The notes beneath the pieces were generated by a model. That model was not told the DNA's origin. It saw only the letters and a program-made list of their open reading frames with translations, and ran no database searches. A DNA stretch of 64,000 nucleotides from Nanobdellota archaeon. Its GTDB lineage: Archaea; Nanobdellota; Nanobdellia; Pacearchaeales; GW2011-AR1. Positions 3,419 to 17,011 of this stretch are shown here, piece by piece. The stretch covers positions 104,452-168,451 of the forward strand of contig JBBTAN010000017.1 of the NCBI GenBank assembly GCA_038044205.1, read 5' to 3'. The position numbers were made by a program, and so were the translations under genes. Positions within the stretch are counted from its first letter, which is position 1, and each line of letters begins with the position of its first letter.

Positions 3419-3461
3419 TGCCCGGAGGTTATTGGGATGGTTTTCTTATTGTAAATGGTTA
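3419..3461 (+). promoter_or_regulatory. TGCCCGGA-class promoter (copy a)
   Basis: TGCCCGGA 3419-3426, TATT at +21..24; no ORF >=60 aa before next copy. Confidence 0.45.
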
Positions 3462-3655
3462 TAGAGTGTGGGTTTATAGAAAAAGGAGAAAATGAAATGA
3501 ATAATATTTCTTTTTCTATTGAAGTAGAAGAAATAAAGGATATTGTTATATTTGGGCATTGATGTTTCATGATAGATTTGGTGGGAGATAAAAAAGATGA
3601 ACAGGGATGAATTTATTAGATATTGGGGGATAGATGGTAAGAAAGGACTATCTCT

Positions 3656-3698
3656 TGCCCGGAAGGGCAGGGAGAGGCTTTATTATAGGTTTATGGGC
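3656..3698 (+). promoter_or_regulatory. TGCCCGGA-class promoter (copy b, weaker downstream box)
   Basis: TGCCCGGA 3656-3663, TATA at +21..24, G at +32; ~270 nt upstream of 3933 gene. Confidence 0.35.
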
Positions 3699-3932
3699 AA
3701 GTCAATTGATCCTTTATGGGCAATGAAATGAATTATTTTCAATAAATGCGTAAATATCCGACTATATTTCCTATGGCTTATAATATAAGTGGTGTAATAG
3801 AATTGGTTTGTAAAGAATTTGGTATTATTGAAAAGAATATAATTATACTTGAGTTACCTAGTTTTGATTTTTATAGGGATTACTGAAAAATAAATAAATT
3901 ATTTTTCTTTTAGTGACGAAAAGGAGAATGAA

Positions 3933-4160
3933 ATGGCAAAGAAAATAATTTTGCGTAAAGATATGATTTTAGCTAAAGGTTTGAGTTATGATAAAGCTAG
4001 AATTCTTTTTGAGAAAGCGAGTAAGACTTCTGCTGCTAAATATATTACATTTTCTATTACAGATAAACCATACGGAAAGACATGGCAACTTTGTGGAAGT
4101 TGTAAAAAGATAACAAAGTTGTTTTGTGAAAAACCAGAAGATTTTATTATTGAGGTATAA
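3933..4160 (+). CDS. hypothetical protein
   Basis: 75-aa ORF, AAGGAG 6 nt upstream. Confidence 0.6.
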   Translation: MAKKIILRKDMILAKGLSYDKARILFEKASKTSAAKYITFSITDKPYGKTWQLCGSCKKITKLFCEKPEDFIIEV

Positions 4161-4233
4161 AATGAATATAATATATATAATTAGTATATTTTATATAGGG
4201 CGATTGATTTATATTTATTTTGAAAAGGAATAA

Positions 4234-4276
4234 TGCCCGGAGATGGTAAAAGAATATAATTTATTCTTTTTTGTGG
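4234..4276 (+). promoter_or_regulatory. TGCCCGGA-class promoter (copy c)
   Basis: octamer 4234-4241, TTTATT ending +24, G at +32 (GTGG), then AGTAAACAAAAAGGAGA leader. Confidence 0.6.
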
Positions 4277-4312
4277 CCGAAATGGAATTTAGTAAACAAA
4301 AAGGAGAATGGA

Positions 4313-4585
4313 ATGAGTAAGCGTAAGACTGATGGTGAGTATTTGGCTATTAGGAAGACAAATAAGATTCCTGTTGGTGGTTGTAATTTTATTACTTGCC
4401 CATTTTGTAAGGAAAATGGTGGTGATATAGCTGATGCTCATTTGGGAACTACTTTTATTGAAATGAATATGTTTTGTATTAAATGTGATAAGGTATGGGT
4501 AGAAACCTATGAGATTTCAGAATTTAGACAGGTTTCTAAAGATTTTGTATTGGAAAATGCAAATGTTAATATAGGTTGTAGATAG
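4313..4585 (+). CDS. CPFC zinc-ribbon family protein (member 1 of 3)
   Basis: start moved to SD-proximal ATG downstream of predicted +1; CPFC...CIKCDKVW motif shared with 6112 and 10960 genes. Confidence 0.6.
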   Translation: MSKRKTDGEYLAIRKTNKIPVGGCNFITCPFCKENGGDIADAHLGTTFIEMNMFCIKCDKVWVETYEISEFRQVSKDFVLENANVNIGCR

Positions 4586-4619
4586 AAAAGAATAGAAAAG
4601 AATAAAAAGGAGTAAGTAT

Positions 4620-5231
4620 ATGACAGAGAAGGAGTTAAAGGATAAACGTAAGAGATATAATGTTTTGGCAAAGAAGGTTAAGGATTTAGAGGCTATTGAG
4701 GATAAGCAATTTGCTGATAATTCTGGTGAATTGGCTACTCAATATGAAAATACTGCAAAGTCATTGAAAGGTAGTGAAGGGGATTTTGTTGCTATGGGTG
4801 GGGCTGAAATTGATATAGTAGATAGTGAGGGACAGATGTTGGGTTTTAGAGTTGGAGATGTTTATCATAATATTCCTGAAAAAGCAACTAAAGCGTTGTG
4901 GATCAATTATCAGCGTAGGTATATGTCCAGTAATATGCAAGGTCCATTTCTTATGAGTAAAAAGATGTGGAATATGTTGAAGAAAGAAATAGATTATAGG
5001 TTTAGTAAGGAGTATAAAAAGATAACTGAATGTATGGAATGTGGTAAGAAGTTGTCTTCTGCTGAAAAGAAGAATAATAAACATATTTGTGTTAGTTGTA
5101 TTTCAAAAAAGTGTAAGGGATGTGGTGTTATATTGGCTAGTCATGAAAAAGATGATGGAGGTAATTATTGTTCTACTTGTGCTAAAGTTGTTCCTTGTAA
5201 AGAATTGACTGAAAAGAATAAGTTGAAGTAA
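4620..5231 (+). CDS. hypothetical protein with C-terminal Cys-rich zinc ribbons
   Basis: 203 aa, strong SD; CMECG...CVSC...CKGCG...CSTC. Confidence 0.65.
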   Translation: MTEKELKDKRKRYNVLAKKVKDLEAIEDKQFADNSGELATQYENTAKSLKGSEGDFVAMGGAEIDIVDSEGQMLGFRVGDVYHNIPEKATKALWINYQRRYMSSNMQGPFLMSKKMWNMLKKEIDYRFSKEYKKITECMECGKKLSSAEKKNNKHICVSCISKKCKGCGVILASHEKDDGGNYCSTCAKVVPCKELTEKNKLK

Positions 5232-5246
5232 AAAGGAAAATGAAAA

Positions 5247-5393
5247 ATGGATAATACTTCTGTTTTGCGAACATTGGCGGAATGTCTTTTTGTAGATATG
5301 CCAAAAGATTATTCTTTTTTAGAAGATGTCGATGAAAGTCTTATTGATAATGAGCATGATGAATATAGTCATGAGGAACTTTACGGCGAATAA
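5247..5393 (+). CDS. small acidic protein (48 aa)
   Basis: below ORF-track cutoff; AAGGAAAA SD, fills gap before tRNA. Confidence 0.45.
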   Translation: MDNTSVLRTLAECLFVDMPKDYSFLEDVDESLIDNEHDEYSHEELYGE

Positions 5394-5405
5394 ATAAAAT
5401 AATAT

Positions 5406-5491
5406 GGCCTAATGACGGAACGGCATACGTGAAGATCTTAAAAGTCTTTGTCCGAAAGGGCGTGTGGGTTCGAGTCCCACTTAGGCCACCA
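5406..5491 (+). tRNA. tRNA-Leu (anticodon TAA), long variable arm, CCA encoded
   Basis: hand fold: acceptor GGCCTAA/TTAGGCC, anticodon stem AAGAT/GTCTT, loop CTTAAAA, T arm GTGGG-TTCGAGT-CCCAC. Confidence 0.8.
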
Positions 5492-5503
5492 AAATAAAAT
5501 AAA

Positions 5504-5537
5504 TAAAGCTCAAGTATTATAACTTGGGCTTTATTTT
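5504..5537 (+). terminator. rho-independent terminator
   Basis: AAAGCTCAAGT...ACTTGGGCTTT hairpin plus T-run; sequence related to 8342 hairpin. Confidence 0.6.
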
Positions 5538-5586
5538 AATTGAGGGGAATAAATATTTTTATTATTGCGAAAAAAGGAGAAAAAGA

Positions 5587-5829
5587 ATGAGGAAGTGTAA
5601 TTGTGCTGTTTGTAAGAAAGAATATAATAAATTTGAGTTGTGGTTGATAGATTTAGGGATGTCGATATTTTGTCAAGATAGGGATATAGATATTGTTTCT
5701 TTTAATAAAGAGATGATGGTATGTTCTAATTGTGTTAGAAGTATGGAGATAATTTATCTTGACGCTATTGCGAAGATAAATAAATTTAGTGAACAATTTA
5801 TTAAAACAGGAGTAAAATCAAATGTTTAA
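5587..5829 (+). CDS. small zinc-ribbon protein
   Basis: start at SD-proximal ATG; CNCAVC ... CSNC. Confidence 0.55.
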   Translation: MRKCNCAVCKKEYNKFELWLIDLGMSIFCQDRDIDIVSFNKEMMVCSNCVRSMEIIYLDAIAKINKFSEQFIKTGVKSNV

Positions 5830-6372: not shown

Positions 6373-6468
6373 AATAATATAATATATTTGTGGTTAGTTA
6401 TGTATCAATTTTATTTTTTGGTGTTTGTGTTTTCAAGAGTCAGGAACTAAGTACTTTTTCTATATTTG

Positions 6469-7154: not shown

Positions 7155-7589
7155 ATGAGTAATAATTCAAGCAATGGTGGTATTGGATTTTGTGGGATGT
7201 TGTGCATATTATTTATTGGGTTGAAGTTGACTAATAATATAGATTGGAGTTGGGTTTGGGTTCTTTCTCCTATTTGGATTCCACTTGGTATTTTTTGGGG
7301 TGGAGTTGGTATTTGTTCATTGATTGATTATATTAAGGAGTATAGGGAGAATAAGAAGACAAAGGATAAGATGGAAGTTATTGATCAATTTTTGGGTTAT
7401 GTTAAGAAACAAAATAAGGATGTTATTATTAATATGACTGGAGTAAAAGTTGATCCTAAGGACGGGCAGAAAATAATTGATATTGGTGGTATTGTAGATA
7501 ATATGGCTAAAGATTTGGATATTGTTATTAATAATATTACTCCAAATGATAAGAAAAAAAGTCAATGCCCGGAGGTGCTTGAAACCTGA
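7155..7589 (+). CDS. two-TM membrane protein with C-terminal soluble extension
   Basis: paralog of 6917 gene; last codons overlap promoter copy d. Confidence 0.6.
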   Translation: MSNNSSNGGIGFCGMLCILFIGLKLTNNIDWSWVWVLSPIWIPLGIFWGGVGICSLIDYIKEYRENKKTKDKMEVIDQFLGYVKKQNKDVIINMTGVKVDPKDGQKIIDIGGIVDNMAKDLDIVINNITPNDKKKSQCPEVLET

Positions 7590-7608
7590 TATTTATTCTT
7601 TTTTGTGG
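7566..7608 (+). promoter_or_regulatory. TGCCCGGA-class promoter (copy d)
   Basis: octamer 7566-7573, TTTATT ending +24, GTGG at +32. Confidence 0.6.
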
Positions 7609-7642: not shown

Positions 7643-7879
7643 ATGGGTAATTACATGGTTTACGAGTTTGTTTATGGTACTTTGACTCCTTGTAAGTTTG
7701 TTGATTCTTACCAAGAGGGTATTGATTTTATCAATGCCAGGATGATTGAGGATGAAATGCCCTGTACTTGTACTGATAATAACCCTGAAAATACTATTTA
7801 TTCAGCTAATGAAAATGACCAGGTGGGTTATTTGCTGAATAAGTTGATTGTTCCTCATAAGCTGGCTATGGTCAGCTAA
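7643..7879 (+). CDS. hypothetical protein
   Basis: second in-frame ATG has proper SD spacing. Confidence 0.55.
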   Translation: MGNYMVYEFVYGTLTPCKFVDSYQEGIDFINARMIEDEMPCTCTDNNPENTIYSANENDQVGYLLNKLIVPHKLAMVS

Positions 7880-8088: not shown

Positions 8089-8090
8089 TA

Positions 8091-8445: not shown

Positions 8446-8736
8446 ATGGAAGATGAAATTGATTTTATTATCGACGAAATGGTAGATATTCATTTTTCTT
8501 TTATTGAACCTGAAAGTATTTATGATGAAGATGAATATAATCCAGGTGTCCAGAAGATAAAGAAGCAAAAGAAATTTAATGGCCCAGCACAAAGGAAAGA
8601 AAGGGATAGGGAACGTCTAATAAGGGAAATGAAGAAGCAATTCCCTAATATGAAGCGCAATGAAGTAAAACAATATCGGTATACTGTCAAGGAACCTGTA
8701 ACTCAATGCCCGGAAGGGCAAAACCCTGGTAATTGA
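8446..8736 (+). CDS. hypothetical acidic/basic protein
   Basis: 96 aa; 3' end overlaps promoter copy e (reads QCPE, as in 7155 gene). Confidence 0.5.
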   Translation: MEDEIDFIIDEMVDIHFSFIEPESIYDEDEYNPGVQKIKKQKKFNGPAQRKERDRERLIREMKKQFPNMKRNEVKQYRYTVKEPVTQCPEGQNPGN

Positions 8737-8749
8737 TTATATTTCGTGG
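8707..8749 (+). promoter_or_regulatory. TGCCCGGA-class promoter (copy e)
   Basis: octamer 8707-8714, GATT at +21..24, GTGG at +32. Confidence 0.55.
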
Positions 8750-8785: not shown

Positions 8786-9295
8786 ATGGAAAACAGTGTT
8801 GTTAGTTTTCGTGAAGGGGAAACAAGAGACTTTTCTGATGGTGATGTTATGGCCCATGCTCCTGATGGTTGGATTTATGTAAATGGAGTTAAGACAAAGA
8901 AATGGTTTCTTAATTCTATTGAAGATTCTTTTGTTTGGCCTCCTGTCCTAAATGATGTCAAGGCTATTGAAGCTAGACGTTGGAAGGTTATCAATAGAAT
9001 TGAAGATAAGAAGATAAAGAAAATATGGTCAGGTCTTTCTAGTTTTAAGAATGTTCCTCAATCTATTTGGGATATGGTCATTCCTCTAAATAGAAAGAAG
9101 CGTATTTTTAATGACGTTTTTCTTCGGGCAATAAATAATAAATATGGCCTAGTTAAGGCAAAAGAAATGGTTGATAGTAATAAGAATATTCTCAAGGTTA
9201 CTATCAATGGCAGAATTTATTGGTTTGCGATTAAGGATTATATGTTTGTTCGTTTTTACTATCCAGAAGATGTTATTGAATCCGAAGTCATCTAA
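8786..9295 (+). CDS. hypothetical protein
   Basis: 169 aa, strong SD. Confidence 0.65.
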   Translation: MENSVVSFREGETRDFSDGDVMAHAPDGWIYVNGVKTKKWFLNSIEDSFVWPPVLNDVKAIEARRWKVINRIEDKKIKKIWSGLSSFKNVPQSIWDMVIPLNRKKRIFNDVFLRAINNKYGLVKAKEMVDSNKNILKVTINGRIYWFAIKDYMFVRFYYPEDVIESEVI

Positions 9296-10572: not shown

Positions 10573-10881
10573 ATGTTTCTTTTCCGCTTCGAGAAGCTAA
10601 ACGATGATACTTTTGTTTGTTCACTTAACTCTCATAAAGATTGTCTCTCACTTGCTTTATGGCTAAAGAAAAGTAAAGAAACAGGCTATGTCTCTGTTTC
10701 TGATTCTTATGGTTGGTTTTATAATCCTTTTTGGGAAACAGTAAGTAATAAAATGCAATGTTTGGCCCATGAATTAGTTGGATTGAATATCGTTAAAGGG
10801 ACTATAAAAGGAGATGATGATTATGAAAGACTAATTGGAAGAGGTACTGTCGATAAAATAGAATTGACTCCCACTTCCTGA
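10573..10881 (+). CDS. tandem-paralog family protein (3 of 3)
   Basis: same family. Confidence 0.65.
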   Translation: MFLFRFEKLNDDTFVCSLNSHKDCLSLALWLKKSKETGYVSVSDSYGWFYNPFWETVSNKMQCLAHELVGLNIVKGTIKGDDDYERLIGRGTVDKIELTPTS

Positions 10882-10924
10882 TGCCCGGAACAAGAAAATC
10901 AACAGAATCTATTTTCAATTGTAA
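10882..10924 (+). promoter_or_regulatory. TGCCCGGA-class promoter (copy f)
   Basis: octamer 10882-10889, TATT +21..24, GTAAC at +32; 13-bp inverted repeat AGAAAATCAACAG/CTGTTGATTTTCT spans it. Confidence 0.55.
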
Positions 10925-10959
10925 CCTGTTGATTTTCTTTTACTTAAAGGAGAAAATAA

Positions 10960-11193
10960 ATGGTAACTGATGCTGAATATGAGGATATGAAGAAAAGAGA
11001 AAAGGAATATCTGGAATCTGGTGGTAATATCTGTCCTTTTTGTAATTCAGAAGATATAACTGCTGGACCTGTCGAGTTTAATAGTATACAAGGTTTTAGA
11101 GATTGTGAATGTAAGACTTGTAAAGAAGCATGGCAGGAACATTATTCACTGTCTGGTATAAGTGAATATGACAAACAAGGTAATCTAAAGTAA
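10960..11193 (+). CDS. CPFC zinc-ribbon family protein (member 3 of 3)
   Basis: CPFCNS...CKTCKEAWQEHY. Confidence 0.65.
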   Translation: MVTDAEYEDMKKREKEYLESGGNICPFCNSEDITAGPVEFNSIQGFRDCECKTCKEAWQEHYSLSGISEYDKQGNLK

Positions 11194-11202
11194 ATAAAAC
11201 AT

Positions 11203-11276
11203 GCGGGTGTAGCTCAGTTGGCTAGAGCAAAAAGCTTTTAACTTTTAGGCCGTGGGTTCGAGTTCCACCACCCGTA
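11203..11276 (+). tRNA. tRNA-Lys (anticodon TTT)
   Basis: hand fold: GCGGGTG/CACCCGT acceptor, GCTC-AGTTGGCTA-GAGC, AAAAG-CTTTTAA-CTTTT, GTGGG-TTCGAGT-TCCAC. Confidence 0.75.
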
Positions 11277-11353
11277 ATAACATTAAAAAATGTTGTTTAT
11301 TTTTATTATTATTTGTTTAATAATAATATAAACAACTAAAAGGAGAAAAGAAA

Positions 11354-11461
11354 ATGAATATTACTCTTTATCTATCTATTTGTTTCCTTTCAATGTCTAT
11401 TGGATTTGCACTTGGCTGTATTTATTCAGTTCGTACTATGAGGAAAGAGATTGAAAAGTAA
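11354..11461 (+). CDS. 35-aa hydrophobic peptide
   Basis: strong SD; SIGFALGC core, paralog of 11562 ORF. Confidence 0.45.
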   Translation: MNITLYLSICFLSMSIGFALGCIYSVRTMRKEIEK

Positions 11462-11561
11462 TAGAATAGATAGAGAAAATGCAAATCGCGTAAGAACTAT
11501 CTAACTGTGTGTAACTAAACGACACAAATAATATAATAAACAACACAAAAGGAGAAATAAA

Positions 11562-11678
11562 ATGGATATTATTTCTATTTTTTCTTGTTCACTTGCTATT
11601 GGATTTCTTTCTGGTTGTATGTTTACAGCATGGAGATTCAATAAGGCGTTTGATGAGGTAATGGGAAAGGAAAAGTAA
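11562..11678 (+). CDS. 38-aa hydrophobic peptide
   Basis: strong SD; AIGFLSGC core. Confidence 0.45.
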   Translation: MDIISIFSCSLAIGFLSGCMFTAWRFNKAFDEVMGKEK

Positions 11679-11722
11679 AATAAACATTTAACACGAAAGG
11701 AGAAAAATATAGAATAACTCAA

Positions 11723-11766
11723 TGCCCGGAGAAACAAAAAATTCAATTCCGTATTATAGTTTGTAA
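11723..11766 (+). promoter_or_regulatory. TGCCCGGA-class promoter (copy g, +1 nt spacing)
   Basis: octamer 11723-11730, TATT +22..25, GTAAG at +33. Confidence 0.55.
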
Positions 11767-11828
11767 GTCGATACGGTTGTATGTTCAATCGTATCAAAAA
11801 GTAAGTAGAAAGAAAAGGAGAAAGTAAC

Positions 11829-12266
11829 ATGGCTGATACTATTACCGTTGATACTCAGTTTACGAGGGAGCAACTTGAGGGAATGGATCTCGCTACCCTT
11901 GAGGCTATCGCTTCTAAGCTTAGGGAAAATAAGATTTCTGAGCTTAAGGCGCAGAATATTGAACTGGCCGCTAAGGTCTCGGCTAATAACGCCGAGCTTG
12001 TTAAGCTCGGTGGTAAGTCCGACTCTAAGGCTACAGGAACTAAGGTTCCTCGCAATACCCGTGAGGCTATTGTTGCCGTTATTGATGGCGTTTATATGAC
12101 TCCACCTGAGATTGTTGAGAAGATTTGCGCTGGTTCCATTTTCAATCCCGAAGGTATGGATAATAAGAATAAGCTCCTTTATGTCCATACTGAACTTAAT
12201 AACGGCGTTAAGGCTGGTACTATTATCAGGGATGGTAAGAAGTATACTCTTGCCGCTAAGGAGTAA
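11829..12266 (+). CDS. Ala-rich coiled-coil plus C-terminal winged-helix-like (linker-histone/HARE-HTH-like) protein, paralog of 15591..16034
   Basis: GC-rich ORF; shared TREAIVAVIDG...TPPEI...YVHTEL.NGVK.GTI.RDG..YTLA. Confidence 0.6.
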   Translation: MADTITVDTQFTREQLEGMDLATLEAIASKLRENKISELKAQNIELAAKVSANNAELVKLGGKSDSKATGTKVPRNTREAIVAVIDGVYMTPPEIVEKICAGSIFNPEGMDNKNKLLYVHTELNNGVKAGTIIRDGKKYTLAAKE

Positions 12267-12277
12267 ATATAATAATA

Positions 12278-12312
12278 AATACATGGGCCTAAAAACCCCA
12301 TGTATTTTTTTT
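12278..12312 (+). terminator. rho-independent terminator
   Basis: AATACATGGG/CCCATGTATT hairpin plus T8. Confidence 0.65.
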
Positions 12313-12334
12313 ACTATATCTATTTTTTATTCGT

Positions 12335-12377
12335 TGCCCGGACATATAAAAAATCCTTTTTCTATTATAAATCGTAA
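12335..12377 (+). promoter_or_regulatory. TGCCCGGA-class promoter (copy h)
   Basis: octamer 12335-12342, TATT +21..24, GTAAAGGC hairpin starts at +32. Confidence 0.6.
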
Positions 12378-12459
12378 AGGCAATGATGGTAAGCCTTTAC
12401 AAATATATGAATATGTCATTCATATATTTCTTTTTTGTTACCATTGAAAGGGTATTACA

Positions 12460-12780
12460 ATGTCTGAAAGTGAGAACAAGGAGCGCGAGGTTGTTGTCAT
12501 TGCTATCAATGTCAATGTCGCTGTAAAGCAAGCCGTCACTATCTACAAGGCTCTCAGTTGGAGCGCTTGGGATATCTACAACAAGGGAAAGGAAGCTAAG
12601 CGCGTTGGTGATGATGAAACCGCCCGAAGGATGAAGGGCGCTTTCTATCGCTGGATTAAGCCCTGTGATGAAATCCGCCAACAGATTACTAATATCTTCG
12701 GCCAGGAGGAAGCTAATAGACTCCTCGGCCCCGATAACCGAAAGGTTAGGGAAGAGCAGCCTGTTAAGGTTGATGCCTAA
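12460..12780 (+). CDS. hypothetical protein (GC-rich cassette)
   Basis: 106 aa; elevated G+C with spurious ORFs in other frames. Confidence 0.55.
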   Translation: MSESENKEREVVVIAINVNVAVKQAVTIYKALSWSAWDIYNKGKEAKRVGDDETARRMKGAFYRWIKPCDEIRQQITNIFGQEEANRLLGPDNRKVREEQPVKVDA

Positions 12781-12794
12781 AAAGGAGAAATAAT

Positions 12795-13103
12795 ATGTCC
12801 TATCAAGGTTATGAACAGGCAATCTGTGAAAATGGTCATTATTTTCATCTTCCTTGTACTTATGGCCTTGAAAAAGATATGGACGAAGCAAGATGTCCAG
12901 TCTGCAAAGCTAAAGTAGTTTGGTTTAATTCAGTTGACGAAACTATTACTCACCAAACTATTGAACATCCTAAACAAGGGAGAGGTTATGTTGTCCTCGA
13001 AGAAAATATTGAGGAAACATTAGATAAACATGTTAGATATCTTATACCAAAAAATAAAGGAATAACTATCCATAGAATAAAGCGTTCAGAATACACCAAA
13101 TAA
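12795..13103 (+). CDS. zinc-ribbon protein
   Basis: CENGH...CPVCKAKV; strong SD. Confidence 0.6.
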   Translation: MSYQGYEQAICENGHYFHLPCTYGLEKDMDEARCPVCKAKVVWFNSVDETITHQTIEHPKQGRGYVVLEENIEETLDKHVRYLIPKNKGITIHRIKRSEYTK

Positions 13104-13121
13104 ACTAAAGGAGCAAAATTA

Positions 13122-13235
13122 ATGGAACTTTTTGTAAGTATTTGTCTTGGATTAGCATTATATCTTGCTGCTAAAGCTTATATAATTGCTAATGTTGAAA
13201 GAACCATATCCAAAGATAAAGAACTCAAACAATAA
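13122..13235 (+). CDS. 37-aa hydrophobic peptide
   Basis: SD AAGGAG; single TM helix. Confidence 0.4.
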   Translation: MELFVSICLGLALYLAAKAYIIANVERTISKDKELKQ

Positions 13236-13241
13236 ACTAAT

Positions 13242-13275
13242 AAGGCCAAGTATTAATTTACTTGGCCTTTTCCCT
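13242..13275 (+). terminator. rho-independent terminator
   Basis: AAGGCCAAGT/ACTTGGCCTT hairpin. Confidence 0.65.
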
Positions 13276-13298
13276 TTTAGTAGACAATAAAAATACCT

Positions 13299-13341
13299 TG
13301 CCCGGAAACCTACCACCTGTCCTTTTTATTCTAATACGTAA
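13299..13341 (+). promoter_or_regulatory. TGCCCGGA-class promoter (copy i)
   Basis: octamer 13299-13306, TTTATT ending +24, GTAAC at +32. Confidence 0.6.
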
Positions 13342-13377
13342 CCAAAATAAAACACCATTAGCTGAAAAGGAGATTAA

Positions 13378-13629
13378 ATGCCATCATGTATTATGGATTG
13401 TGACCTTTGTGAAACCGTTTGTAAGGAGAGTAATATGAATGAAAGCAATAACCCAGTAACAACCGATAACGGCGACACTGGAGTAGGAACACAAACGAAA
13501 AATTCAGATATGTTCTTTATTCTTAAGTTTAAGGAACATGTCGAAGAATACCAAAAAGAAGCAATAGCACATTTTATTGCTTCTCATTTCGGCAATCAAA
13601 TCAAACTGTCAAAAGCCATAGCCGTTTAA
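13378..13629 (+). CDS. hypothetical protein
   Basis: 83 aa, strong SD. Confidence 0.55.
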   Translation: MPSCIMDCDLCETVCKESNMNESNNPVTTDNGDTGVGTQTKNSDMFFILKFKEHVEEYQKEAIAHFIASHFGNQIKLSKAIAV

Positions 13630-13636
13630 TTTTTTT

Positions 13637-13708
13637 ATTCCTGTGGTGAAACGGATATCATGAGGGACTTCTAATCCCTTGTTCCCAGTTCAAATCTGGG
13701 CAGGAATA
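13637..13708 (+). tRNA. tRNA-Arg (anticodon TCT)
   Basis: hand fold: ATTCCTG/CAGGAAT acceptor, AGGGA-CTTCTAA-TCCCT, CCCAG-TTCAAAT-CTGGG. Confidence 0.7.
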
Positions 13709-13730
13709 ATAAATAAAAAAGGAAAATTAA

Positions 13731-13889
13731 ATGCTCATCAAAGTCGTCCTCGAAAAGGATAGAATTATCCTTATACCGGAAAATAGAACATTTAAGGAAG
13801 GTGGAGAACAAATGAAGTTCTATACAAAGGAAGAGTCACTACCTGACCCAGTGAAAAGTTGGCTATTACGATATGTAAATGATAAGTAA
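13731..13889 (+). CDS. small protein (52 aa)
   Basis: below track cutoff; AAGGAAAA SD directly after tRNA. Confidence 0.4.
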   Translation: MLIKVVLEKDRIILIPENRTFKEGGEQMKFYTKEESLPDPVKSWLLRYVNDK

Positions 13890-13936
13890 AAGAATAATCT
13901 TTTCTTTTACTTATAAACAAAAAAAGGAGAAATAAC

Positions 13937-14179
13937 TTGCCTGATATAACTGAAATCGAATTGTCAATAGAACAGCTAGAAGCTGAACTACTCAAACGAA
14001 AACTCGAAAAGGTTCAACGCTTCATTGATGATAACGCATCAATGGAGAAAAGAATCGCCTCACTTACTCAAAATATAGAATTCAACAAAAAGGCCATTGC
14101 TAAGTTTGAACAAAATATAGCTTTCCTAACCAAAGCTATAGCCAAAAACAAAACCATAATCGAAAACGCAACAAAATAA
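13937..14179 (+). CDS. coiled-coil protein (TTG start)
   Basis: strong SD; heptad-like repeats. Confidence 0.55.
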   Translation: MPDITEIELSIEQLEAELLKRKLEKVQRFIDDNASMEKRIASLTQNIEFNKKAIAKFEQNIAFLTKAIAKNKTIIENATK

Positions 14180-14186
14180 TATAATA

Positions 14187-14220
14187 AAAGACCAAGTATT
14201 TTTACTTGGTCTTTTTTAGT
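14187..14220 (+). terminator. rho-independent terminator
   Basis: AAAGACCAAGTA/TACTTGGTCTTT hairpin plus T-run. Confidence 0.65.
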
Positions 14221-14241
14221 AGACAATCATAAAAATCCCAA

Positions 14242-14284
14242 TGCCCGGACTAAATAAAATCACTCAACCTATTATTTATTGTAA
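14242..14284 (+). promoter_or_regulatory. TGCCCGGA-class promoter (copy j)
   Basis: octamer 14242-14249, TATT +21..24, GTAAC at +32. Confidence 0.6.
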
Positions 14285-14326
14285 CTGATTGATAACCAGT
14301 CACTTACAATAAAAAAGGAGAACAAA

Positions 14327-14590
14327 ATGAATTCAGACCAAAAAGACTCTCCACAAGTCAAACAAATGGAACTTGAAGCTAAATTAATTAAATTTTGCTT
14401 CTTAGAAGCTACTAATATCCACGTAGGAACTGAACACTATCACAAAAACGGAAATAACCTTTTTGTGAAGTTGACAGGAGAAAATTCAATCACTATCGCT
14501 GTTATTCACAATGACAATATAACAGCAATAACTCACTGCTGTCAACCTTATTCCATTGAATGGACTAATTTTGACCAACTCTTTCAATAA
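14327..14590 (+). CDS. hypothetical protein
   Basis: 87 aa, strong SD. Confidence 0.55.
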   Translation: MNSDQKDSPQVKQMELEAKLIKFCFLEATNIHVGTEHYHKNGNNLFVKLTGENSITIAVIHNDNITAITHCCQPYSIEWTNFDQLFQ

Positions 14591-14665
14591 ATAATTTATA
14601 TAAATATAATATATAAACTAATAATTTATATATTATATTTTTTATATTATTTATTTTTTATTTGT

Positions 14666-14708
14666 TGCCCGGAAAGACTATTTTTCCCTTTCCTATTATT
14701 TACTGTAA
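14666..14708 (+). promoter_or_regulatory. TGCCCGGA-class promoter (copy k) upstream of tRNA pair
   Basis: octamer 14666-14673, TATT +21..24, GTAAGG at +32; leader hairpin 14704-14749. Confidence 0.6.
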
Positions 14709-14803
14709 GGGCAAAGACTTTTCCAAAGTTAGGAAAGAACTACCTTACAAATGATACGCAAGTGGTTGATAATGGGGCTTGCGTATCTAAAGTAATCAAA
14801 CAT

Positions 14804-14876
14804 ACGGGGTTAGCTCAGTTGGTAGAGCATCGGATTTTTAATCCGAAGTGCGTGGGTTCGATCCCCACATCCCGTA
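14804..14876 (+). tRNA. tRNA, anticodon loop reads TTT (second tRNA-Lys)
   Basis: hand fold: ACGGGGT/ATCCCGT acceptor, GCTC-AGTTGGTA-GAGC, TCGGA-TTTTTAA-TCCGA, GTGGG-TTCGATC-CCCAC. Confidence 0.65.
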
Positions 14877-14889
14877 ATATAATAAACAA

Positions 14890-14963
14890 GCCCCTGTCGT
14901 CTAATTGGCTTGGATATTAGGTTTTCAGCCTAAAGATTGCGAGTTCAAATCTCGCCAGGGGTA
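14890..14963 (+). tRNA. tRNA-Glu (anticodon TTC)
   Basis: hand fold: GCCCCTG/CAGGGGT acceptor, TTAGG-TTTTCAG-CCTAA, GCGAG-TTCAAAT-CTCGC. Confidence 0.65.
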
Positions 14964-15006
14964 AATAAAATAATTGTTGCATTATGCAACATAAGGAGAA
15001 AAGATC

Positions 15007-15186
15007 ATGGATAAGGCCACTTGTTATTACTGGGAATCCGAAAGCGATCATGGGAATGTTTACGCTTCATCCGATGAGGAAGCAATAAACATAACAAAAG
15101 AGAATGCAAACCTTGTCATTATATACAAAGAAAGCAAAACGGACGATGGACTTCCGTTTATTACCGTTTGGAAATGCCAAAACTAA
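15007..15186 (+). CDS. small protein (59 aa)
   Basis: just below track cutoff; AAGGAGAA SD. Confidence 0.5.
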   Translation: MDKATCYYWESESDHGNVYASSDEEAINITKENANLVIIYKESKTDDGLPFITVWKCQN

Positions 15187-15202
15187 ATAAGGAAAAATAA
15201 AC

Positions 15203-15325
15203 ATGGAGACTATTTTTCTCTACTCTGTAATAGGAGCTTATATAGGAGCCGTAATAGGGTTCATTATAGCTCCTATTATCATAGAAATAGATATATTTCT
15301 CCATGACCTGTGGAACATTTTCTAA
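15203..15325 (+). CDS. 40-aa hydrophobic peptide
   Basis: weak SD; TM helix. Confidence 0.35.
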   Translation: METIFLYSVIGAYIGAVIGFIIAPIIIEIDIFLHDLWNIF

Positions 15326-15336
15326 AAGGAGAAATA

Positions 15337-15420
15337 ATGGCCGAACTAATAACATCCATAGTATTAGCCATTATTTCTTCTGTTTGTATTAAAACATGGG
15401 CAAAGAATATCAATAACTGA
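15337..15420 (+). CDS. 27-aa hydrophobic peptide
   Basis: strong SD AAGGAGAA. Confidence 0.35.
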   Translation: MAELITSIVLAIISSVCIKTWAKNINN

Positions 15421-15439
15421 TAATTTGCCCATCAATATA

Positions 15440-15472
15440 AGAATCAACTACTTGAAGTTGATTCTTTTTTTT
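15440..15472 (+). terminator. rho-independent terminator
   Basis: AGAATCAACT/AGTTGATTCT hairpin plus T9. Confidence 0.65.
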
Positions 15473-15496
15473 TATACCATACTAAATATAATTCGT

Positions 15497-15539
15497 TGCC
15501 CGGAGATATGATTATTGATTTTTTTATTCTATTATGTAA
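15497..15539 (+). promoter_or_regulatory. TGCCCGGA-class promoter (copy l)
   Basis: octamer 15497-15504, TTTATT ending +24, GTAAGCGGTTGAATGGTCAA leader identical to copy m. Confidence 0.6.
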
Positions 15540-15590
15540 GCGGTTGAATGGTCAATCGCAAGACAGTATCAGAAATGAAAGGGGTTTGAC

Positions 15591-16034
15591 ATGGCGAATG
15601 ATGTTGTGGTTACGGATGTTGACGTTGCAGCGCTTGACTCCGACCAGGTTATTGAGCTTATGGCTAAGCTCAATGAGAAGTTGACTGCGGCTAAGGCCGA
15701 GTCGATTGCCAAGCTTAGGGCCGCTAATGTTGAATTGGCCGCTAAGATTGCGGCTAACAACGCGGAAATCGCCAAGCTTGGCGGAAAGACGGAAGCGGCT
15801 AAGGGAAGTAAGGTTAGCCGTCATACGCGCGAGGCTATTGTTGCCGTTATTGACGGCAATTCTTTGACCCCACCTGAAATTGCCAAGGTGATTTGTGTTG
15901 GTCCCATTTTTTATCAGGGAGATATGGATAACGATAAGGTTCTCTCTTACGTCCATACCGAATTGGCGAATGGAGTTAAGAAGGGAACTATTCTCAGGGA
16001 TGGCGATACCTATACTCTCGCCGTCAAGGAGTAA
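15591..16034 (+). CDS. Ala-rich coiled-coil plus winged-helix-like protein, paralog of 11829..12266
   Basis: GC-rich; see 11829 gene. Confidence 0.6.
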   Translation: MANDVVVTDVDVAALDSDQVIELMAKLNEKLTAAKAESIAKLRAANVELAAKIAANNAEIAKLGGKTEAAKGSKVSRHTREAIVAVIDGNSLTPPEIAKVICVGPIFYQGDMDNDKVLSYVHTELANGVKKGTILRDGDTYTLAVKE

Positions 16035-16049
16035 GTAAACAAAACAAAA

Positions 16050-16090
16050 AAGAAAGACCAGGTTAATAACCTAGTCTTTCTTTTTATTTA
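16050..16090 (+). terminator. rho-independent terminator
   Basis: AGAAAGACCAGG/CCTAGTCTTTCT hairpin plus T-run. Confidence 0.6.
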
Positions 16091-16106
16091 TATTTATTTT
16101 ATTTGT

Positions 16107-16149
16107 TGCCCGGAGATAATATATGAGATTTTTTTATTGTTATATGTAA
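16107..16149 (+). promoter_or_regulatory. TGCCCGGA-class promoter (copy m)
   Basis: octamer 16107-16114, TTTATT ending +24, GTAAG at +32. Confidence 0.6.
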
Positions 16150-16200
16150 GCGGTTGAATGGTCAACTACTTACATAAGGCAACTATCAAAGGAGAATCAA

Positions 16201-16545
16201 ATGGCCATTGGAAAGTATTCTGCCCGCAATCGGGAAGCCATGCGGGAAGCGACTCTCCCTGTCAAGATGCGGACATGCTGCATTAGCGGCGAACGTCTCC
16301 CTATTGCCCAGCTTTCCAGGGCGGAATTGACAGTCAATGGCTTGTCAATCGACTTCGGCTATATCCAGAAGGGATATATTAGCCGCTTCGCGGAGTTCTG
16401 CGTTCGCGTCAAGGGGTTGTGGAACCGCAAGATTGCGTCCATGACTCCGAATGAAATGATCGCCCATTTCGGACTTCGCCAGTCCGAAGAAGCCGCTCTT
16501 GCGGCTATGGCGTTCAGGACTGGTCTTATAGCTAAGGCCAGCTAA
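16201..16545 (+). CDS. hypothetical protein (GC-rich cassette)
   Basis: 114 aa, strong SD, about half G+C. Confidence 0.55.
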   Translation: MAIGKYSARNREAMREATLPVKMRTCCISGERLPIAQLSRAELTVNGLSIDFGYIQKGYISRFAEFCVRVKGLWNRKIASMTPNEMIAHFGLRQSEEAALAAMAFRTGLIAKAS

Positions 16546-16551
16546 CCCATA

Positions 16552-16590
16552 AAGAAGACCATGCCTAATAAGCATGGTCTTCTTTTATTA
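16552..16590 (+). terminator. rho-independent terminator
   Basis: perfect 13-bp stem AAGAAGACCATGC/GCATGGTCTTCTT. Confidence 0.7.
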
Positions 16591-16608
16591 TACTTACATA
16601 ATATACGA

Positions 16609-16651
16609 TGCCCGGAAGACATAGCCCATGTTATTTTATTATATTATGTAA
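16609..16651 (+). promoter_or_regulatory. TGCCCGGA-class promoter (copy n)
   Basis: octamer 16609-16616, TTTATT ending +24, GTAAGCC hairpin from +31. Confidence 0.6.
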
Positions 16652-16687
16652 GCCAATGGTTAGCTTACAAAAACAAGGGGATAGGAA

Positions 16688-16939
16688 ATGGCAAAGTTGA
16701 TGACGGAAAAGGAAGCCCAGTCTCATGGATTGAGGATCGTTCGTCTTGTGGGCGACAAGCCCTATGCGGGACGCAATCGGACCAAGATAGGTCCGATTGC
16801 CGAGAAGGCCGTGTCGAATCCGAAAGCCCGTATCGAATCAGAGATTCTCGCGGCCTTGCGCGAAGTCTCGGAAGGTTCGGAAGGCGGAAGAGCGGCCCGC
16901 GCGCTTCGCATAACCGAAAGGACGCTCAAGATCAGCTAA
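16688..16939 (+). CDS. small HTH DNA-binding protein (GC-rich cassette)
   Basis: C-terminal AARALRITERTLK resembles Fis/excisionase-type HTH. Confidence 0.5.
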   Translation: MAKLMTEKEAQSHGLRIVRLVGDKPYAGRNRTKIGPIAEKAVSNPKARIESEILAALREVSEGSEGGRAARALRITERTLKIS

Positions 16940-16942
16940 ACA

Positions 16943-16990
16943 AAAGAAATAAATACATGAATTAAGTTTCATGTATTTATTTCTTTTTAT
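16943..16990 (+). terminator. rho-independent terminator
   Basis: 19-bp stem AAAGAAATAAATACATGAA/TTCATGTATTTATTTCTTT plus T-run. Confidence 0.7.
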
Positions 16991-17003
16991 TATTTTTTAT
17001 TGA

Positions 17004-17011
17004 TGCCCGGA
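17004..17011 (+). promoter_or_regulatory. orphan TGCCCGGA box (copy o) lacking the TATT/G downstream elements
   Basis: octamer present; followed by G/C-tract hairpins, no gene. Confidence 0.3.

What the first reader, a model, noticed from the sequence alone, without database searches (positions are those of the whole stretch)
3419..17011. Fifteen same-strand copies of a bipartite motif TGCCCGGA-N20-TATT-N7-G: a dedicated, non-canonical promoter class
The GC-rich octamer TGCCCGGA (usually WTGCCCGGAR) occurs 15 times between 3.4 and 17.0 kb. It is always on the + strand and is intergenic or at the extreme 3' end of an ORF (one copy, at 3656, may lie within a possible 44-codon ORF). I found no copy by eye in the other 47 kb or on the - strand. 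In about 13 copies a TATT core (often TTTATT) sits exactly 20 nt after the octamer, and a conserved G (GTAAG or GTGG) sits 7 nt further on; one copy is shifted by 1 nt. An 18-nt gap between the box and a TTTATT-like hexamer, then 7 nt to a conserved purine, is the geometry of a sigma70-family -35/-10/+1 promoter. The -35 box, however, looks nothing like TTGACA. I infer recognition by an element-encoded or element-modified sigma or activator, as with the SPO1 gp28 and gp33/34 promoter classes. At ~30% G+C the octamer should occur far less than once per 17 kb by chance (rough estimate). One copy drives a tRNA pair rather than a protein gene.
Basis: partly seen in the sequence, partly recalled or inferred. 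Interest (0 to 1): 0.85.

Follow-up and report, generated by a model that had tools for sequence, protein, structure and literature searches.

The report
Phage-specific promoter class with GC-rich box
A roughly 0.5-Mb uncultured groundwater phage-like genome drives a long block of small unknown genes and tRNAs from at least 17 near-identical promoters, each pairing an invariant 8-base GC-rich box with a normal-looking -10 element 20 bases downstream; this signal matches no known promoter consensus and implies a dedicated, still unidentified recognition factor.

Summary
TGCCCGGA occurs 15 times in the window, all on the + strand at 3419-17011, against 0.27 expected. Two more copies lie in the 9.9 kb upstream of the window. 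One-mismatch variants occur only at the chance level. Thirteen of the 17 copies carry TATTnT exactly 20 nt downstream (P about 5e-25), one has it at 21 nt, and 15 of 17 have a G five nt after the hexamer. The spacer carries almost no information. A weight-matrix scan of 79 kb finds nothing between the true sites and background.

The sites are intergenic or lie in the last codons of a gene. Twelve of 17 sit 21-44 nt (most often 27-29) after a terminator-like hairpin. Eight sit 38-41 nt upstream of a start codon, measured from the predicted start G. Several predicted transcripts begin with a hairpin that starts exactly at the conserved G. A diverged relative keeps the boxes and keeps the leader hairpins through different sequence.

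I read this as a dedicated promoter class. That is outside canonical sigma70 geometry. The recognition factor, a phage sigma or a MotA-like activator, was not found in the 79 kb I could reach. This is a new variant of a known kind.

The parts
3419..3461 (+). Promoter copy: TGCCCGGA-N20-TATTGT-N5-GTTA; predicted start G at 3458
   Evidence: terminator-like hairpin 3355-3394 just upstream
3656..3698 (+). Weak or degenerate copy: octamer intact, TATAGG at the -10 offset, GGGC at the start; lies in a doubtful 44-codon ORF
   Evidence: lowest weight-matrix score of the class at 30.9 bits
4234..4276 (+). Promoter copy: N20-TATTCT-N5-GTGG; start G 4273, 40 nt before the ATG at 4313; this unit includes tRNA-Leu at 5406
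7566..7608 (+). Promoter copy whose box overlaps the last codons of gene 7155-7589; TATTCT, GTGG; start G 7605, 38 nt before the ATG at 7643
8707..8749 (+). Promoter copy whose box overlaps the last codons of gene 8446-8736; GATTAT, GTGG; start G 8746, 40 nt before the ATG at 8786
10882..10924 (+). Promoter copy directly after the stop codon of 10573-10881; TATTTT, GTAA; start G 10921, 39 nt before the ATG at 10960; this unit includes tRNA-Lys at 11202
11723..11767 (+). Promoter copy with a 21-nt spacer; TATTAT, GTAAG; start G 11763; leader hairpin 11770-11795; drives the coiled-coil/winged-helix gene 11829-12266
   Evidence: the orthologous site in relative L226 has a 20-nt spacer, GATTGT, GTAAG and a different-sequence hairpin
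12335..12377 (+). Promoter copy: TATTAT, GTAAAGGC; start G 12374; hairpin beginning at +1 (12374-12400), then a second hairpin plus T-run (12401-12436) before the gene at 12460
   Evidence: conserved in L226 with compensatory changes
13299..13341 (+). Promoter copy: TATTCT, GTAA; start G 13338, 40 nt before the ATG at 13378; this unit includes tRNA-Arg at 13636
   Evidence: terminator 13242-13269 upstream
14242..14284 (+). Promoter copy: TATTAT, GTAAC; start G 14281; hairpin starting at +1 (z = -4.8)
   Evidence: terminator 14186-14215 upstream
14666..14708 (+). Promoter copy whose first downstream features are tRNA-Lys (14803-14877) and tRNA-Glu (14890-14963); TATTAT, GTAAGG; hairpin closing GTAAGG with CCTTAC
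15497..15539 (+). Promoter copy: TATTCT, GTAAG; start G 15536; hairpin from +5; drives 15591-16034, a paralogue of 11829-12266
   Evidence: terminator 15439-15466 upstream
16107..16149 (+). Promoter copy: TATTGT, GTAAG; start G 16146; hairpin starting at +1 (z = -4.5)
   Evidence: hairpin 16047-16085 upstream
16609..16651 (+). Promoter copy: TATTAT, GTAAGC; start G 16648; hairpin GTAAGC...GCTTAC starting at +1; 40 nt before the ATG at 16688
   Evidence: terminator 16551-16585 upstream
17004..17011 (+). Orphan octamer: box intact and preceded by hairpin 16942-16987, but with no TATTnT and no G at the expected offsets; marks the right-hand end of the array
12277..12307 (+). Example of the terminator-like hairpin plus T-run that precedes the box. 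The gap from hairpin to box is 27-29 nt at 7 sites, 21-24 nt at 3 sites, and 13 and 44 nt at the other two. Others lie at about 3355-3394, 4166-4189, 13242-13269, 14186-14215, 14604-14638, 15439-15466, 16047-16085, 16551-16585 and 16942-16987
   Evidence: 12 of 17 boxes have such a hairpin

Best explanation
These are the promoters of a dedicated transcription class of a very large, uncultured phage-like element. The source is a 499,814-bp contig from Hainich groundwater, 0.1-um filter fraction.

Each copy is a compact cassette with these parts, in order:
- often a terminator hairpin and an AT-rich linker;
- the invariant box TGCCCGGA at about -40 to -33;
- a 20-bp spacer of arbitrary sequence;
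- a sigma70-type -10 element TATTnT;
- 5 nt and then a pyrimidine-G start (GTAA or GTGG);
- a short leader, often closed by a hairpin that begins at +1;
- a strong Shine-Dalgarno sequence and a small gene, or tRNAs.

Inferred mechanism: a bacterial-type RNA polymerase holoenzyme melts the TATTnT element through a sigma region-2-like domain. The missing -35 contact is replaced by sequence-specific reading of the 8-bp box by an element-encoded protein. That protein is either a phage sigma whose upstream-binding domain reaches about 3 bp further than usual, or an activator that takes the place of the -35 contact as T4 MotA/AsiA does. I put the two roughly level, about 45:35, with the rest on other factors.

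Shown: the motif, its statistics, its placement, and its conservation in a relative. Inferred: that transcription starts at the G, and that a dedicated factor exists. Not identified: the factor and the temporal class.
For: - Counts and strand: 15 exact copies in the window against 0.27 expected, all on the + strand, and no excess of 1-mismatch variants. There are 17 copies in 79 kb with zero reverse-complement copies.
- Bipartite structure: TATTnT lies at +20 in 13 of 17 copies (binomial P about 5e-25) and G at the start position in 15 of 17 (P about 7e-10). Spacer columns carry 0.05-0.5 bits, against 1.5-3 bits in the boxes.
- Discreteness: weight-matrix scores are bimodal. Fifteen of the 17 sites score at least 30.9 bits, and nothing else on either strand exceeds 8 bits. 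Sites 11723 (21-nt spacer) and 17004 (no -10) do not score under this fixed-spacing matrix. The downstream half alone (TATTnT-N5-GTRR) occurs 23 times; 13 are with the box and most of the rest are in coding sequence.
- Placement: all copies are co-directional with the genes and are intergenic or in the last codons of a gene. Twelve of 17 are preceded by a terminator-like hairpin ending 13-44 nt upstream, 27-29 nt in seven of them. The predicted start lies 38-41 nt before the ATG in 8 sites.
- The hexamer keeps the positions that matter most for sigma70-type -10 recognition: A at position 2 in 16/16 and T at position 6 in 15/16. The base before the G is a pyrimidine in 15/16 (the recognition rules are established knowledge).
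- Hairpins start exactly at the conserved G in 12335, 14242, 16107 and 16609 in 32-nt folds (z from -2.0 to -5.0), and in 14666 in a 60-nt fold. Hairpins start within 8 nt of the G in 11723 and 15497. A base-paired 5' end is what a protected transcript 5' end would look like.
- A relative with 49% protein identity (Logan SRR26786787, L226) keeps both flanking boxes, the 20-nt spacing and GTAA. It keeps the leader hairpins through a different sequence or compensatory changes.
- No TTGACA-like hexamer or TGn lies at the canonical offsets, so the -10 alone would need help.
Against: - There are no transcript 5' ends, so the start site and even promoter activity are predictions.
- No sigma, RNA polymerase subunit, MotA or AsiA homologue was detected among about 130 genes in the 79 kb examined, using Pfam precomputed hits and direct scans. 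Most proteins there are orphans, and about 420 kb of the contig was out of reach.
- A 20-bp gap is longer than in any well-studied sigma70-family promoter class, which is awkward for a simple 'new -35' model.
- Intergenic DNA in the one relative is 78-86% identical overall, so retention of the boxes there is weak evidence taken alone.
- One copy (17004) has the box without a -10, and one (3656) has a poor -10.
Confidence: 0.78

Rival explanations
1. Host-only promoters. The box is the -35-equivalent read by the primary sigma of an unusual, unknown host lineage, and no phage factor is needed. These would be ordinary strong early promoters.
For: The array covers a block of small orphan genes typical of phage early regions. 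In T4 and SPO1 such genes are read by unmodified host polymerase (PMC2988021, PMC13401047). The -10 is close to the sigma70 type.
Against: - The box is absolutely invariant, with no 1-mismatch variants, unlike the degenerate -35 elements of housekeeping sigmas.
- None of the other ~60 gene-upstream regions in the 79 kb has it.
- A scan of one genome from each of 185,579 bacterial and archaeal species found only 42 singleton, chance-level matches of the bipartite pattern. The one double hit is a duplicated coding repeat.
- The 20-bp spacing is non-canonical.
Confidence: 0.07
2. Operator model. TGCCCGGA is the binding site of a repressor, for example an early-gene shut-off protein. The repressor sits over the -35 region of promoters that otherwise run on the -10 element and an AT-rich upstream region alone.
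For: The box overlaps the place where sigma region 4 normally sits. One box (17004) exists without a -10, so binding may be independent of initiation. Candidate DNA-binding proteins are encoded nearby: small winged-helix-like proteins at 96-371 and 623-886 (sub-threshold Pfam hits), and coiled-coil plus winged-helix paralogues at 11829 and 15591 that are themselves driven by these promoters. A T-rich stretch abuts the box in several copies.
Against: No -35, TGn or other compensating element is conserved. The -10/start module is almost never found in intergenic DNA without the box, which fits a positive requirement better than a purely negative one. The rigid 20-bp phasing with the -10 points to a contact with polymerase.
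Confidence: 0.09
3. Promoters for a polymerase that is not sigma70-based: an element-encoded multisubunit polymerase (phiKZ-type) or a single-subunit polymerase (T7- or N4-type).
For: Very large phages often carry their own polymerases (general knowledge; reviewed in PMC13282480). The invariance of the box and the conserved G start recall phage-polymerase promoters.
Against: Known single-subunit polymerase promoters are one contiguous conserved block of about 20 bp, or a hairpin. Here 20 bp of arbitrary sequence separate two short boxes. The downstream box matches the sigma70 -10 at exactly the positions that matter, and the start obeys the pyrimidine-purine rule at the usual distance. No polymerase gene was seen in the 79 kb.
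Confidence: 0.06
4. Not primarily transcriptional. The repeats are cassette boundaries for recombination (as proposed for T4-type PeSL elements), strand-specific nicking or packaging signals, or Chi-like sites.
For: The terminator-plus-promoter units flank orphan genes, as PeSLs do (PMC2839356). The sites are strictly on one strand.
Against: Only 8 + 5 + 2 bases are conserved and the spacer is random, which is too little homology for homologous exchange. The fixed register with a -10-like element, the start G, the leader hairpins and the Shine-Dalgarno sequence is not expected of nicking, packaging or Chi sites. All genes in the array are on the same strand, so strand bias is explained by gene orientation.
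Confidence: 0.03

Closest known systems
T4 middle promoters (MotA box plus sigma70 -10; sigma appropriation by AsiA/MotA)
   Same: Both are bipartite. A host-type -10 (TAnnnT) is retained and the -35 is replaced by a phage-specific box. There are many copies upstream of prereplicative genes and phage tRNAs (PMC2988021). Here tRNAs also sit in these units.
   Different: The MotA box is (a/t)(a/t)(a/t)TGCTTtA, centred at -30 and 12+/-1 bp from the -10, and it tolerates many deviations (PMC2988021). Here the box is TGCCCGGA, centred near -36.5 and 20 bp from the -10, and it is invariant in 17 of 17 copies. No MotA or AsiA homologue was found in the DNA available.
SPO1 middle (gp28) and late (gp33/gp34) promoter classes
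   Same: These are phage-specific promoter classes read by phage sigma factors on host core enzyme, with nearly invariant upstream boxes unlike TTGACA (programme: PMC13401047; consensus sequences from my own knowledge of the SPO1 literature).
   Different: The SPO1 boxes, as I recall them, are AGGAGA-N17/18-TTTnTTT and CGTTAGA-N18/19-GATATT. Their spacing stays within the sigma70 range and their -10 elements differ from TATAAT. Here the spacing is 20-21 bp and the -10 keeps the TAnnnT core. No sigma gene was identified.
PeSL cassettes (promoter-early stem-loop) of T4-type phages
   Same: Both are composite terminator-hairpin plus promoter units, repeated between small orphan genes in a plastic region, so that each gene or small group of genes is transcriptionally insulated (PMC2839356, PMC4122927).
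   Different: PeSL promoters are strong sigma70-consensus promoters, and about 100 bp are conserved, enough for recombination. Here the promoter is non-canonical and only the two short boxes are conserved.
Class II activator-dependent promoters and the long-spacer Spo0A-dependent spoIIG promoter
   Same: A factor bound over the -35 to -40 region compensates for a missing or misplaced -35 contact (established knowledge, not tested here).
   Different: Those sites are usually dyad-symmetric or repeated and are degenerate. Here there is a single asymmetric, invariant 8-mer.

Membership tests
Canonical sigma70-family -35/-10 promoter | -10 hexamer with T-A-n-n-n-T, 5-8 nt upstream of a purine start | tested here: met
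   TATTnT with A 16/16 and final T 15/16; G five nt downstream in 15/17; pyrimidine at -1 in 15/16
Canonical sigma70-family -35/-10 promoter | TTGACA-like -35 hexamer | tested here: not met
   The bases at the canonical -35 offset are GGA plus three unconserved bases; no TTGACA-like consensus is present
Canonical sigma70-family -35/-10 promoter | Spacer of 17+/-2 bp between the upstream element and the -10 | tested here: not met
   20 bp in 15 sites and 21 bp in one, measured to the conserved TATTnT
Canonical sigma70-family -35/-10 promoter | Extended -10 (TGn) as a substitute for the -35 | tested here: not met
   No TG lies one base upstream of the hexamer; those columns are T-rich and weakly conserved
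T4 MotA/AsiA-dependent middle promoters | MotA box (a/t)(a/t)(a/t)TGCTTtA, 12+/-1 bp from the -10, centred at -30 (PMC2988021) | tested here: not met
   The box is TGCCCGGA, 20 bp from the -10 and centred near -36.5
T4 MotA/AsiA-dependent middle promoters | Host-type -10 retained | tested here: met
   TATTnT
T4 MotA/AsiA-dependent middle promoters | motA and asiA homologues in the genome | tested here: inconclusive
SPO1-type phage-sigma promoter classes | A phage-encoded sigma70-family protein that reads both boxes | not testable with these tools
   The contig beyond +/-10 kb of the window could not be fetched, and no sigma domains were found in the part seen
SPO1-type phage-sigma promoter classes | The SPO1 consensus boxes themselves (AGGAGA / TTTnTTT; CGTTAGA / GATATT; recalled from the literature) | tested here: not met
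   The sequences are different
PeSL cassettes of T4-type phages | Terminator stem-loop and promoter combined in one intergenic unit next to orphan genes | tested here: met
   12 of 17 sites have a terminator-like hairpin ending 13-44 nt (27-29 nt at seven sites) upstream of the box; the flanking genes have no family matches
PeSL cassettes of T4-type phages | Sigma70-consensus promoter and about 100 bp of conserved sequence usable for recombination (PMC2839356) | tested here: not met
   The upstream box is non-canonical; outside the boxes the columns carry less than 0.6 bits
Single-subunit phage RNA polymerase promoters (T7-like) | One contiguous conserved block from about -17 to +6 | tested here: not met
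   The two boxes are separated by 20 unconserved bp
Sigma54 and ECF-sigma promoters | GG-N10-GC at -24/-12, or GAAC-N16/17-CGT | tested here: not met
   Neither pattern is conserved in the aligned sites

The most novel reading that the evidence does not exclude
The box and the -10 are read by a previously unknown initiation factor of a half-megabase phage. It could be a sigma-like protein with an upstream-binding module that specifies 8 bp and spans a 20-bp gap. It could instead be a monomeric activator that replaces the -35 contact at a position no characterised appropriator uses. Either would give a naturally orthogonal factor/promoter pair with essentially no off-target sites: no match above background in 79 kb of its own genome outside the array, and only chance-level matches in about 600 Gb of bacterial genomes.
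Probability: 0.3. Interest if true: 0.75.

Novelty: new variant of a known kind. Interest (0 to 1): 0.55.

Why it matters
Temporal promoter classes read by phage-encoded factors are the classic way large phages take over transcription. They are known from only a handful of cultured models. Here a complete and unusually clean class can be read directly from the sequence of an uncultured element of about 0.5 Mb with no relatives among deposited phages. That gives three things:
- an operon map and predicted transcript starts for a region made entirely of orphan genes;
- a concrete handle (8-bp box, 20-bp gap, TATTnT) with which to look for the cognate factor in the rest of the genome;
- if the factor is found, a stringent orthogonal promoter/factor pair.

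The 20-bp geometry, if confirmed, would extend what is known about how the -35 contact can be replaced.

Tried and rejected
**Searches for the motif elsewhere**
- Scans for the bipartite pattern in IMG/VR, JGI and other metagenome contigs and one genome per GTDB species gave only single matches. These were at GC 40-60% or in coding sequence. The double hits in L158 and in the palsa_968 MAG are duplicated unrelated repeats.
- A literature search for the octamer returned only primer sequences.

**Searches for relatives of the element**
- Nucleotide and protein searches against deposited phages found no relative.
- Protein homologue searches for promoter-proximal genes found one relative for the 145-aa protein and none for the 169-aa protein.
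- A concatenated query of 17 early proteins returned nothing, not even the proteins themselves, so that search was wasted.
- A search of viral contigs with the family alignment found nothing.

**Access to the rest of the contig**

**Looking for other signals or a candidate factor**
- k-mer enrichment over 61 gene-upstream regions without the box showed only the Shine-Dalgarno sequence, so no second promoter class was found.
- The generic sigma70 consensus scan was at background, 108 found against 101 expected.
- Rfam found only the five tRNAs.
- PDB sequence searches of three mid-sized proteins gave nothing.
- The structure prediction of the 145-aa protein gave a moderate-confidence coiled coil plus winged helix, but only generic weak fold matches with E of at least 0.03. 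It cannot be called the factor.

**Ideas rejected on the anatomy**
- CCGG-type restriction or modification site: CCGG is not otherwise depleted or enriched.
- Palindrome or hairpin in the box: only 2 of 17 copies continue as TGCCCGGAAGGGCA.
- Archaeal TATA/BRE promoter: the distance to the start is wrong, and bacterial terminators and Shine-Dalgarno sequences are present.

Full report
**1. The observation**

TGCCCGGA occurs 15 times in the 64-kb window. Every copy is on the + strand, between 3419 and 17011. Dinucleotide-preserving shuffles give a mean of 0.27 and never more than 2. Allowing one mismatch adds only 10 sites against 9.7 expected; they are scattered on both strands, so there is no halo of degenerate copies.

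The strict composite TGCCCGGA-N20-TATTNT-N5-G matches 11 times against 0.00 expected. Reading the sites one by one:
- 11 window copies have TATT exactly 20 nt after the box.
- 11723 has it at 21 nt.
- 8707 has GATTAT and 3656 has TATAGG at the same offset.
- 17004 has nothing resembling a -10.
- The G five nt after the hexamer is present in all window copies except 17004.

The window comes from a 499,814-bp contig of a Hainich groundwater metagenome, 0.1-um filter fraction. A second assembly of the same element gave 9.9 kb upstream of the window. It holds two more copies, at window -8868 and -5750, with the same architecture. The array therefore has at least 17 members over 26 kb, and its left end is not yet seen. 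Over the 79 kb available the reverse complement never occurs.

**2. Anatomy**

Aligned on the box, 16 sites give TGCCCGGA (8/8 invariant), then 20 columns with 0.05-0.5 bits each. Next comes T(15) A(16) T(16) T(15) n T(15), then five AT-rich bases, then G(15) T(14) A/G A/G.

TATTnT at +20 in 13 of 17 has a binomial P of about 5e-25, given the motif's own frequency in this AT-rich DNA. The G has P of about 7e-10.

A weight matrix built from the sites separates them completely. Fifteen of the 17 sites score at least 30.9 bits, and nothing else on either strand of the 79 kb exceeds 8 bits. Sites 11723 (21-nt spacer) and 17004 (no -10) do not score under this fixed-spacing matrix. The downstream half alone occurs 23 times. 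Thirteen of these are attached to a box, and most of the rest are inside genes. The two halves are therefore a unit, not two common motifs that happen to coincide.

The conserved columns do not support that. The two T's upstream of TATT are present in only 9-10 of 16 sites. The A at hexamer position 2 and the T at position 6, the two positions that matter most in sigma70-type -10 elements (established knowledge), are 16/16 and 15/16 when the hexamer is read as TATTnT. The gap is therefore 20 bp and the box occupies about -40 to -33.

**3. Context**

The whole region from -9.9 kb to about 17 kb is a one-directional run of small genes with strong AAAGGAG ribosome-binding sites.
- The boxes are intergenic, or overlap the last 24-30 nt of the upstream gene (7566, 8707), or abut its stop codon (10882). 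Site 3656 lies in a doubtful 44-codon ORF.
- Twelve of 17 boxes are preceded by a terminator-like hairpin with a T-run. It ends 27-29 nt upstream of the box in seven cases, 21-24 nt in three, and 13 and 44 nt in the other two.
- From the predicted start G to the start codon is 38-41 nt in eight sites and 46-98 nt in most of the others.
- The unit at 14666 leads first into tRNA-Lys and tRNA-Glu. Three more tRNAs sit inside other units.
- None of about 30 proteins tested from the array has a significant family match. A few are paralogues, but most are unrelated. The repeated promoters are therefore not simply copies of one duplicated cassette. The random spacers make the same point.

**4. Evidence that the G is a transcript 5' end**

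In the GTAA subclass (10882-16609), the sequence from the G folds into a hairpin whose first paired base is the G itself. In 32-nt folds this holds for 12335, 14242, 16107 and 16609, with z-scores from -2.0 to -5.0 against shuffles. In a 60-nt fold it also holds for 14666. Hairpins begin within 8 nt of the G in 11723 and 15497. Six of nine GTAA sites have a complementary TTAC within 45 nt, which I estimate should happen in about 14% of sites by chance. A base-paired 5' end with no overhang is the arrangement known to protect bacterial mRNAs from 5'-end-dependent decay (established knowledge). Its register with the conserved G is hard to explain unless RNA begins there.

The GTGG subclass (-8868, 4234, 7566, 8707) lacks such hairpins.

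**5. A relative**

The 145-aa product of 11829-12266 has one homologue outside this element. It is 49% identical and lies on a 1,040-bp contig from an unrelated sequencing run. That contig keeps the gene order and both flanking promoters:
- TGCCCGGA-N20-GATTGT-N5-GTAAG upstream of the gene;
- TGCCCGGA-N20-TATTAT-N5-GTAAAGGC downstream of it.

The intergenic DNA is 78-86% identical overall, so box retention alone is weak evidence. The leaders are more telling. The hairpin after the first promoter is replaced by a different sequence that folds at a similar position. The two hairpins after the second promoter are kept through a U-A to U-G change and two compensatory pairs. This points to selection at the RNA level just downstream of the predicted start.

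**6. What the element is**

About 130 genes in 79 kb yield only about 15 Pfam families: glycosyl- and methyltransferases, three radical SAM proteins, a TnpB-like protein, ankyrin and collagen repeats. None are ribosomal or core metabolic proteins.
- A collagen-repeat protein and a 220-aa protein match phage tail-fibre and virion-protein families.
- The five tRNAs all read A-ending codons.
- There is no nucleotide or protein similarity to deposited phage genomes, apart from one 36% match over 107 residues.

A very large tailed phage of an unknown bacterial host is the best reading. A giant plasmid-like element is not excluded. Intrinsic terminators and Shine-Dalgarno sequences make the host bacterial.

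**7. Mechanism**

The downstream half behaves like a sigma70-family -10 with a normal start-site rule. There is no -35, no TGn and no other conserved element apart from the box, so the box must supply the missing upstream contact.
- Its invariance, its absence from every other upstream region of the 79 kb and its absence from bacterial genomes at large argue against a housekeeping host sigma. They argue for a dedicated, element-encoded reader.
- Two models fit. One is a phage sigma that reads both boxes. The consistent T at hexamer position 4 and the GT start hint at a -10 preference of its own. The other is an activator that stands in for the -35 contact, as MotA does with AsiA-remodelled sigma70 in T4 (PMC2988021, PMC6755090).
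- The 20-bp gap is about 3 bp more than sigma70-family enzymes normally span, which favours the second model or an atypical sigma.
- I could not find the factor.
- Possible DNA-binding proteins nearby are noted below, but nothing links them to the box.
- The temporal class is also open. If no factor is injected with the DNA, these cannot be the very first promoters used, and 'middle' (delayed-early) is the natural assignment. T4 middle units likewise include tRNAs (PMC2988021).

**8. Comparison with known systems**

- In function the class resembles T4 middle promoters and the SPO1 gp28 and gp34 classes. In layout it resembles the terminator-promoter PeSL cassettes that flank orphan genes in T4-type phages (PMC2839356).
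- It is a member of none of them. The box sequence, its position and its invariance differ from the MotA box. The spacing is outside the SPO1 and sigma70 range. Unlike PeSLs, the promoter is non-canonical and too little sequence is conserved to drive recombination.
- Single-subunit polymerase promoters, sigma54 promoters and ECF promoters are excluded by the anatomy.

**9. Verdict**

The promoter interpretation is well supported in silico, with a corrected geometry. The recognition factor is unidentified. This is a new variant of a known kind of system. Its interest is moderate to good: it is clean, specific and testable, but the underlying principle is familiar and the organism is uncultured.

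Noticed in passing
window 887-2639: A 1.75-kb stretch with no called gene sits inside an otherwise tightly packed gene run. It is very AT-rich (about 26% G+C) and GC skew drops to zero there. It has tandem 41-48-nt repeats (AAAAAATAAAGTATAAAATTGAA...) at 1173-1316. It might be an origin, a regulatory region or an unannotated RNA. Rfam found nothing.
   Followed up: partly
window 50487-54326 (+) and 55376-58063 (+): Two very large ORFs of 1279 and 895 aa are packed with serine-codon repeats. TCTAGTTC occurs 80 times in the 79 kb, 79 of them inside these two ORFs and none as the reverse complement. The second ORF has a Laminin_G_3/tail-fibre-like domain. The public gene call places two short minus-strand genes inside it instead.
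   Followed up: partly
window 11829-12266 and 15591-16034: These are paralogues (64% identical), each directly behind one of the promoters. The predicted fold is a long coiled coil plus a C-terminal winged-helix domain (pLDDT 65; only generic winged-helix fold matches). They are possible dimeric DNA-binding proteins, but there is no evidence that they bind the box.
   Followed up: partly
window 96-371 and 623-886: Two small proteins of about 90 aa have sub-threshold matches to winged-helix families (HTH_45 at E 3e-4; MarR at 0.025). They lie in a unit without the box, just left of the long non-coding stretch. They are candidate regulators.
   Followed up: partly
window 12374-12436: The leader behind promoter 12335 has a hairpin starting at +1, then a second 12-bp hairpin followed by TTTCTTTTTT. 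This could be an attenuator, or the end of a ~60-nt small RNA, ahead of the gene at 12460. Both hairpins are kept in the relative through compensatory changes.
   Followed up: partly
window 17004-17125: The last box has no -10. It is followed by C-run/G-run hairpins (CCCCCACCCCCGTAGTGGGGG, AGGGGACCCCCCT), one of which reads as a terminator for the minus strand. The gene pattern changes here from small orphans to larger enzyme genes.
   Followed up: no
window 5406-5491, 11202-11277, 13636-13709, 14803-14877, 14890-14963: The five tRNAs are Leu-UAA, Lys-UUU (twice), Arg-UCU and Glu-UUC. All read A-ending codons, as expected if an AT-rich phage supplements a host with a different codon preference.
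   Followed up: no
window 25685-26959 (-): A TnpB/Cas12f-like protein (OrfB_IS605 plus the TNB domain) lies on the minus strand between phage-like genes. No transposase partner is called next to it.
   Followed up: no
window 22151-24424 (-), 28407-39275, 58118-64000 and beyond (L001): There is an ankyrin/DUF3447 repeat protein of 757 aa, three radical SAM genes, and two clusters rich in glycosyl- and methyltransferases. One glycosyltransferase matches phrog_3408 at E 1e-107. Together these suggest an extensive glycan or modification capacity.
   Followed up: no
window 7566-7589 and 8707-8736: Where the box overlaps the end of the upstream gene, it is read in the same frame both times (…Q-C-P-E…). 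These C-terminal tails are probably incidental read-through into the promoter.
   Followed up: no
L226 (Logan SRR26786787, 1,040 bp): This is the only relative found anywhere. It has the same gene order and the same two promoters, 49% protein identity and 78-86% intergenic identity. The intergenic DNA is thus better conserved than the protein, which is unusual.
   Followed up: partly
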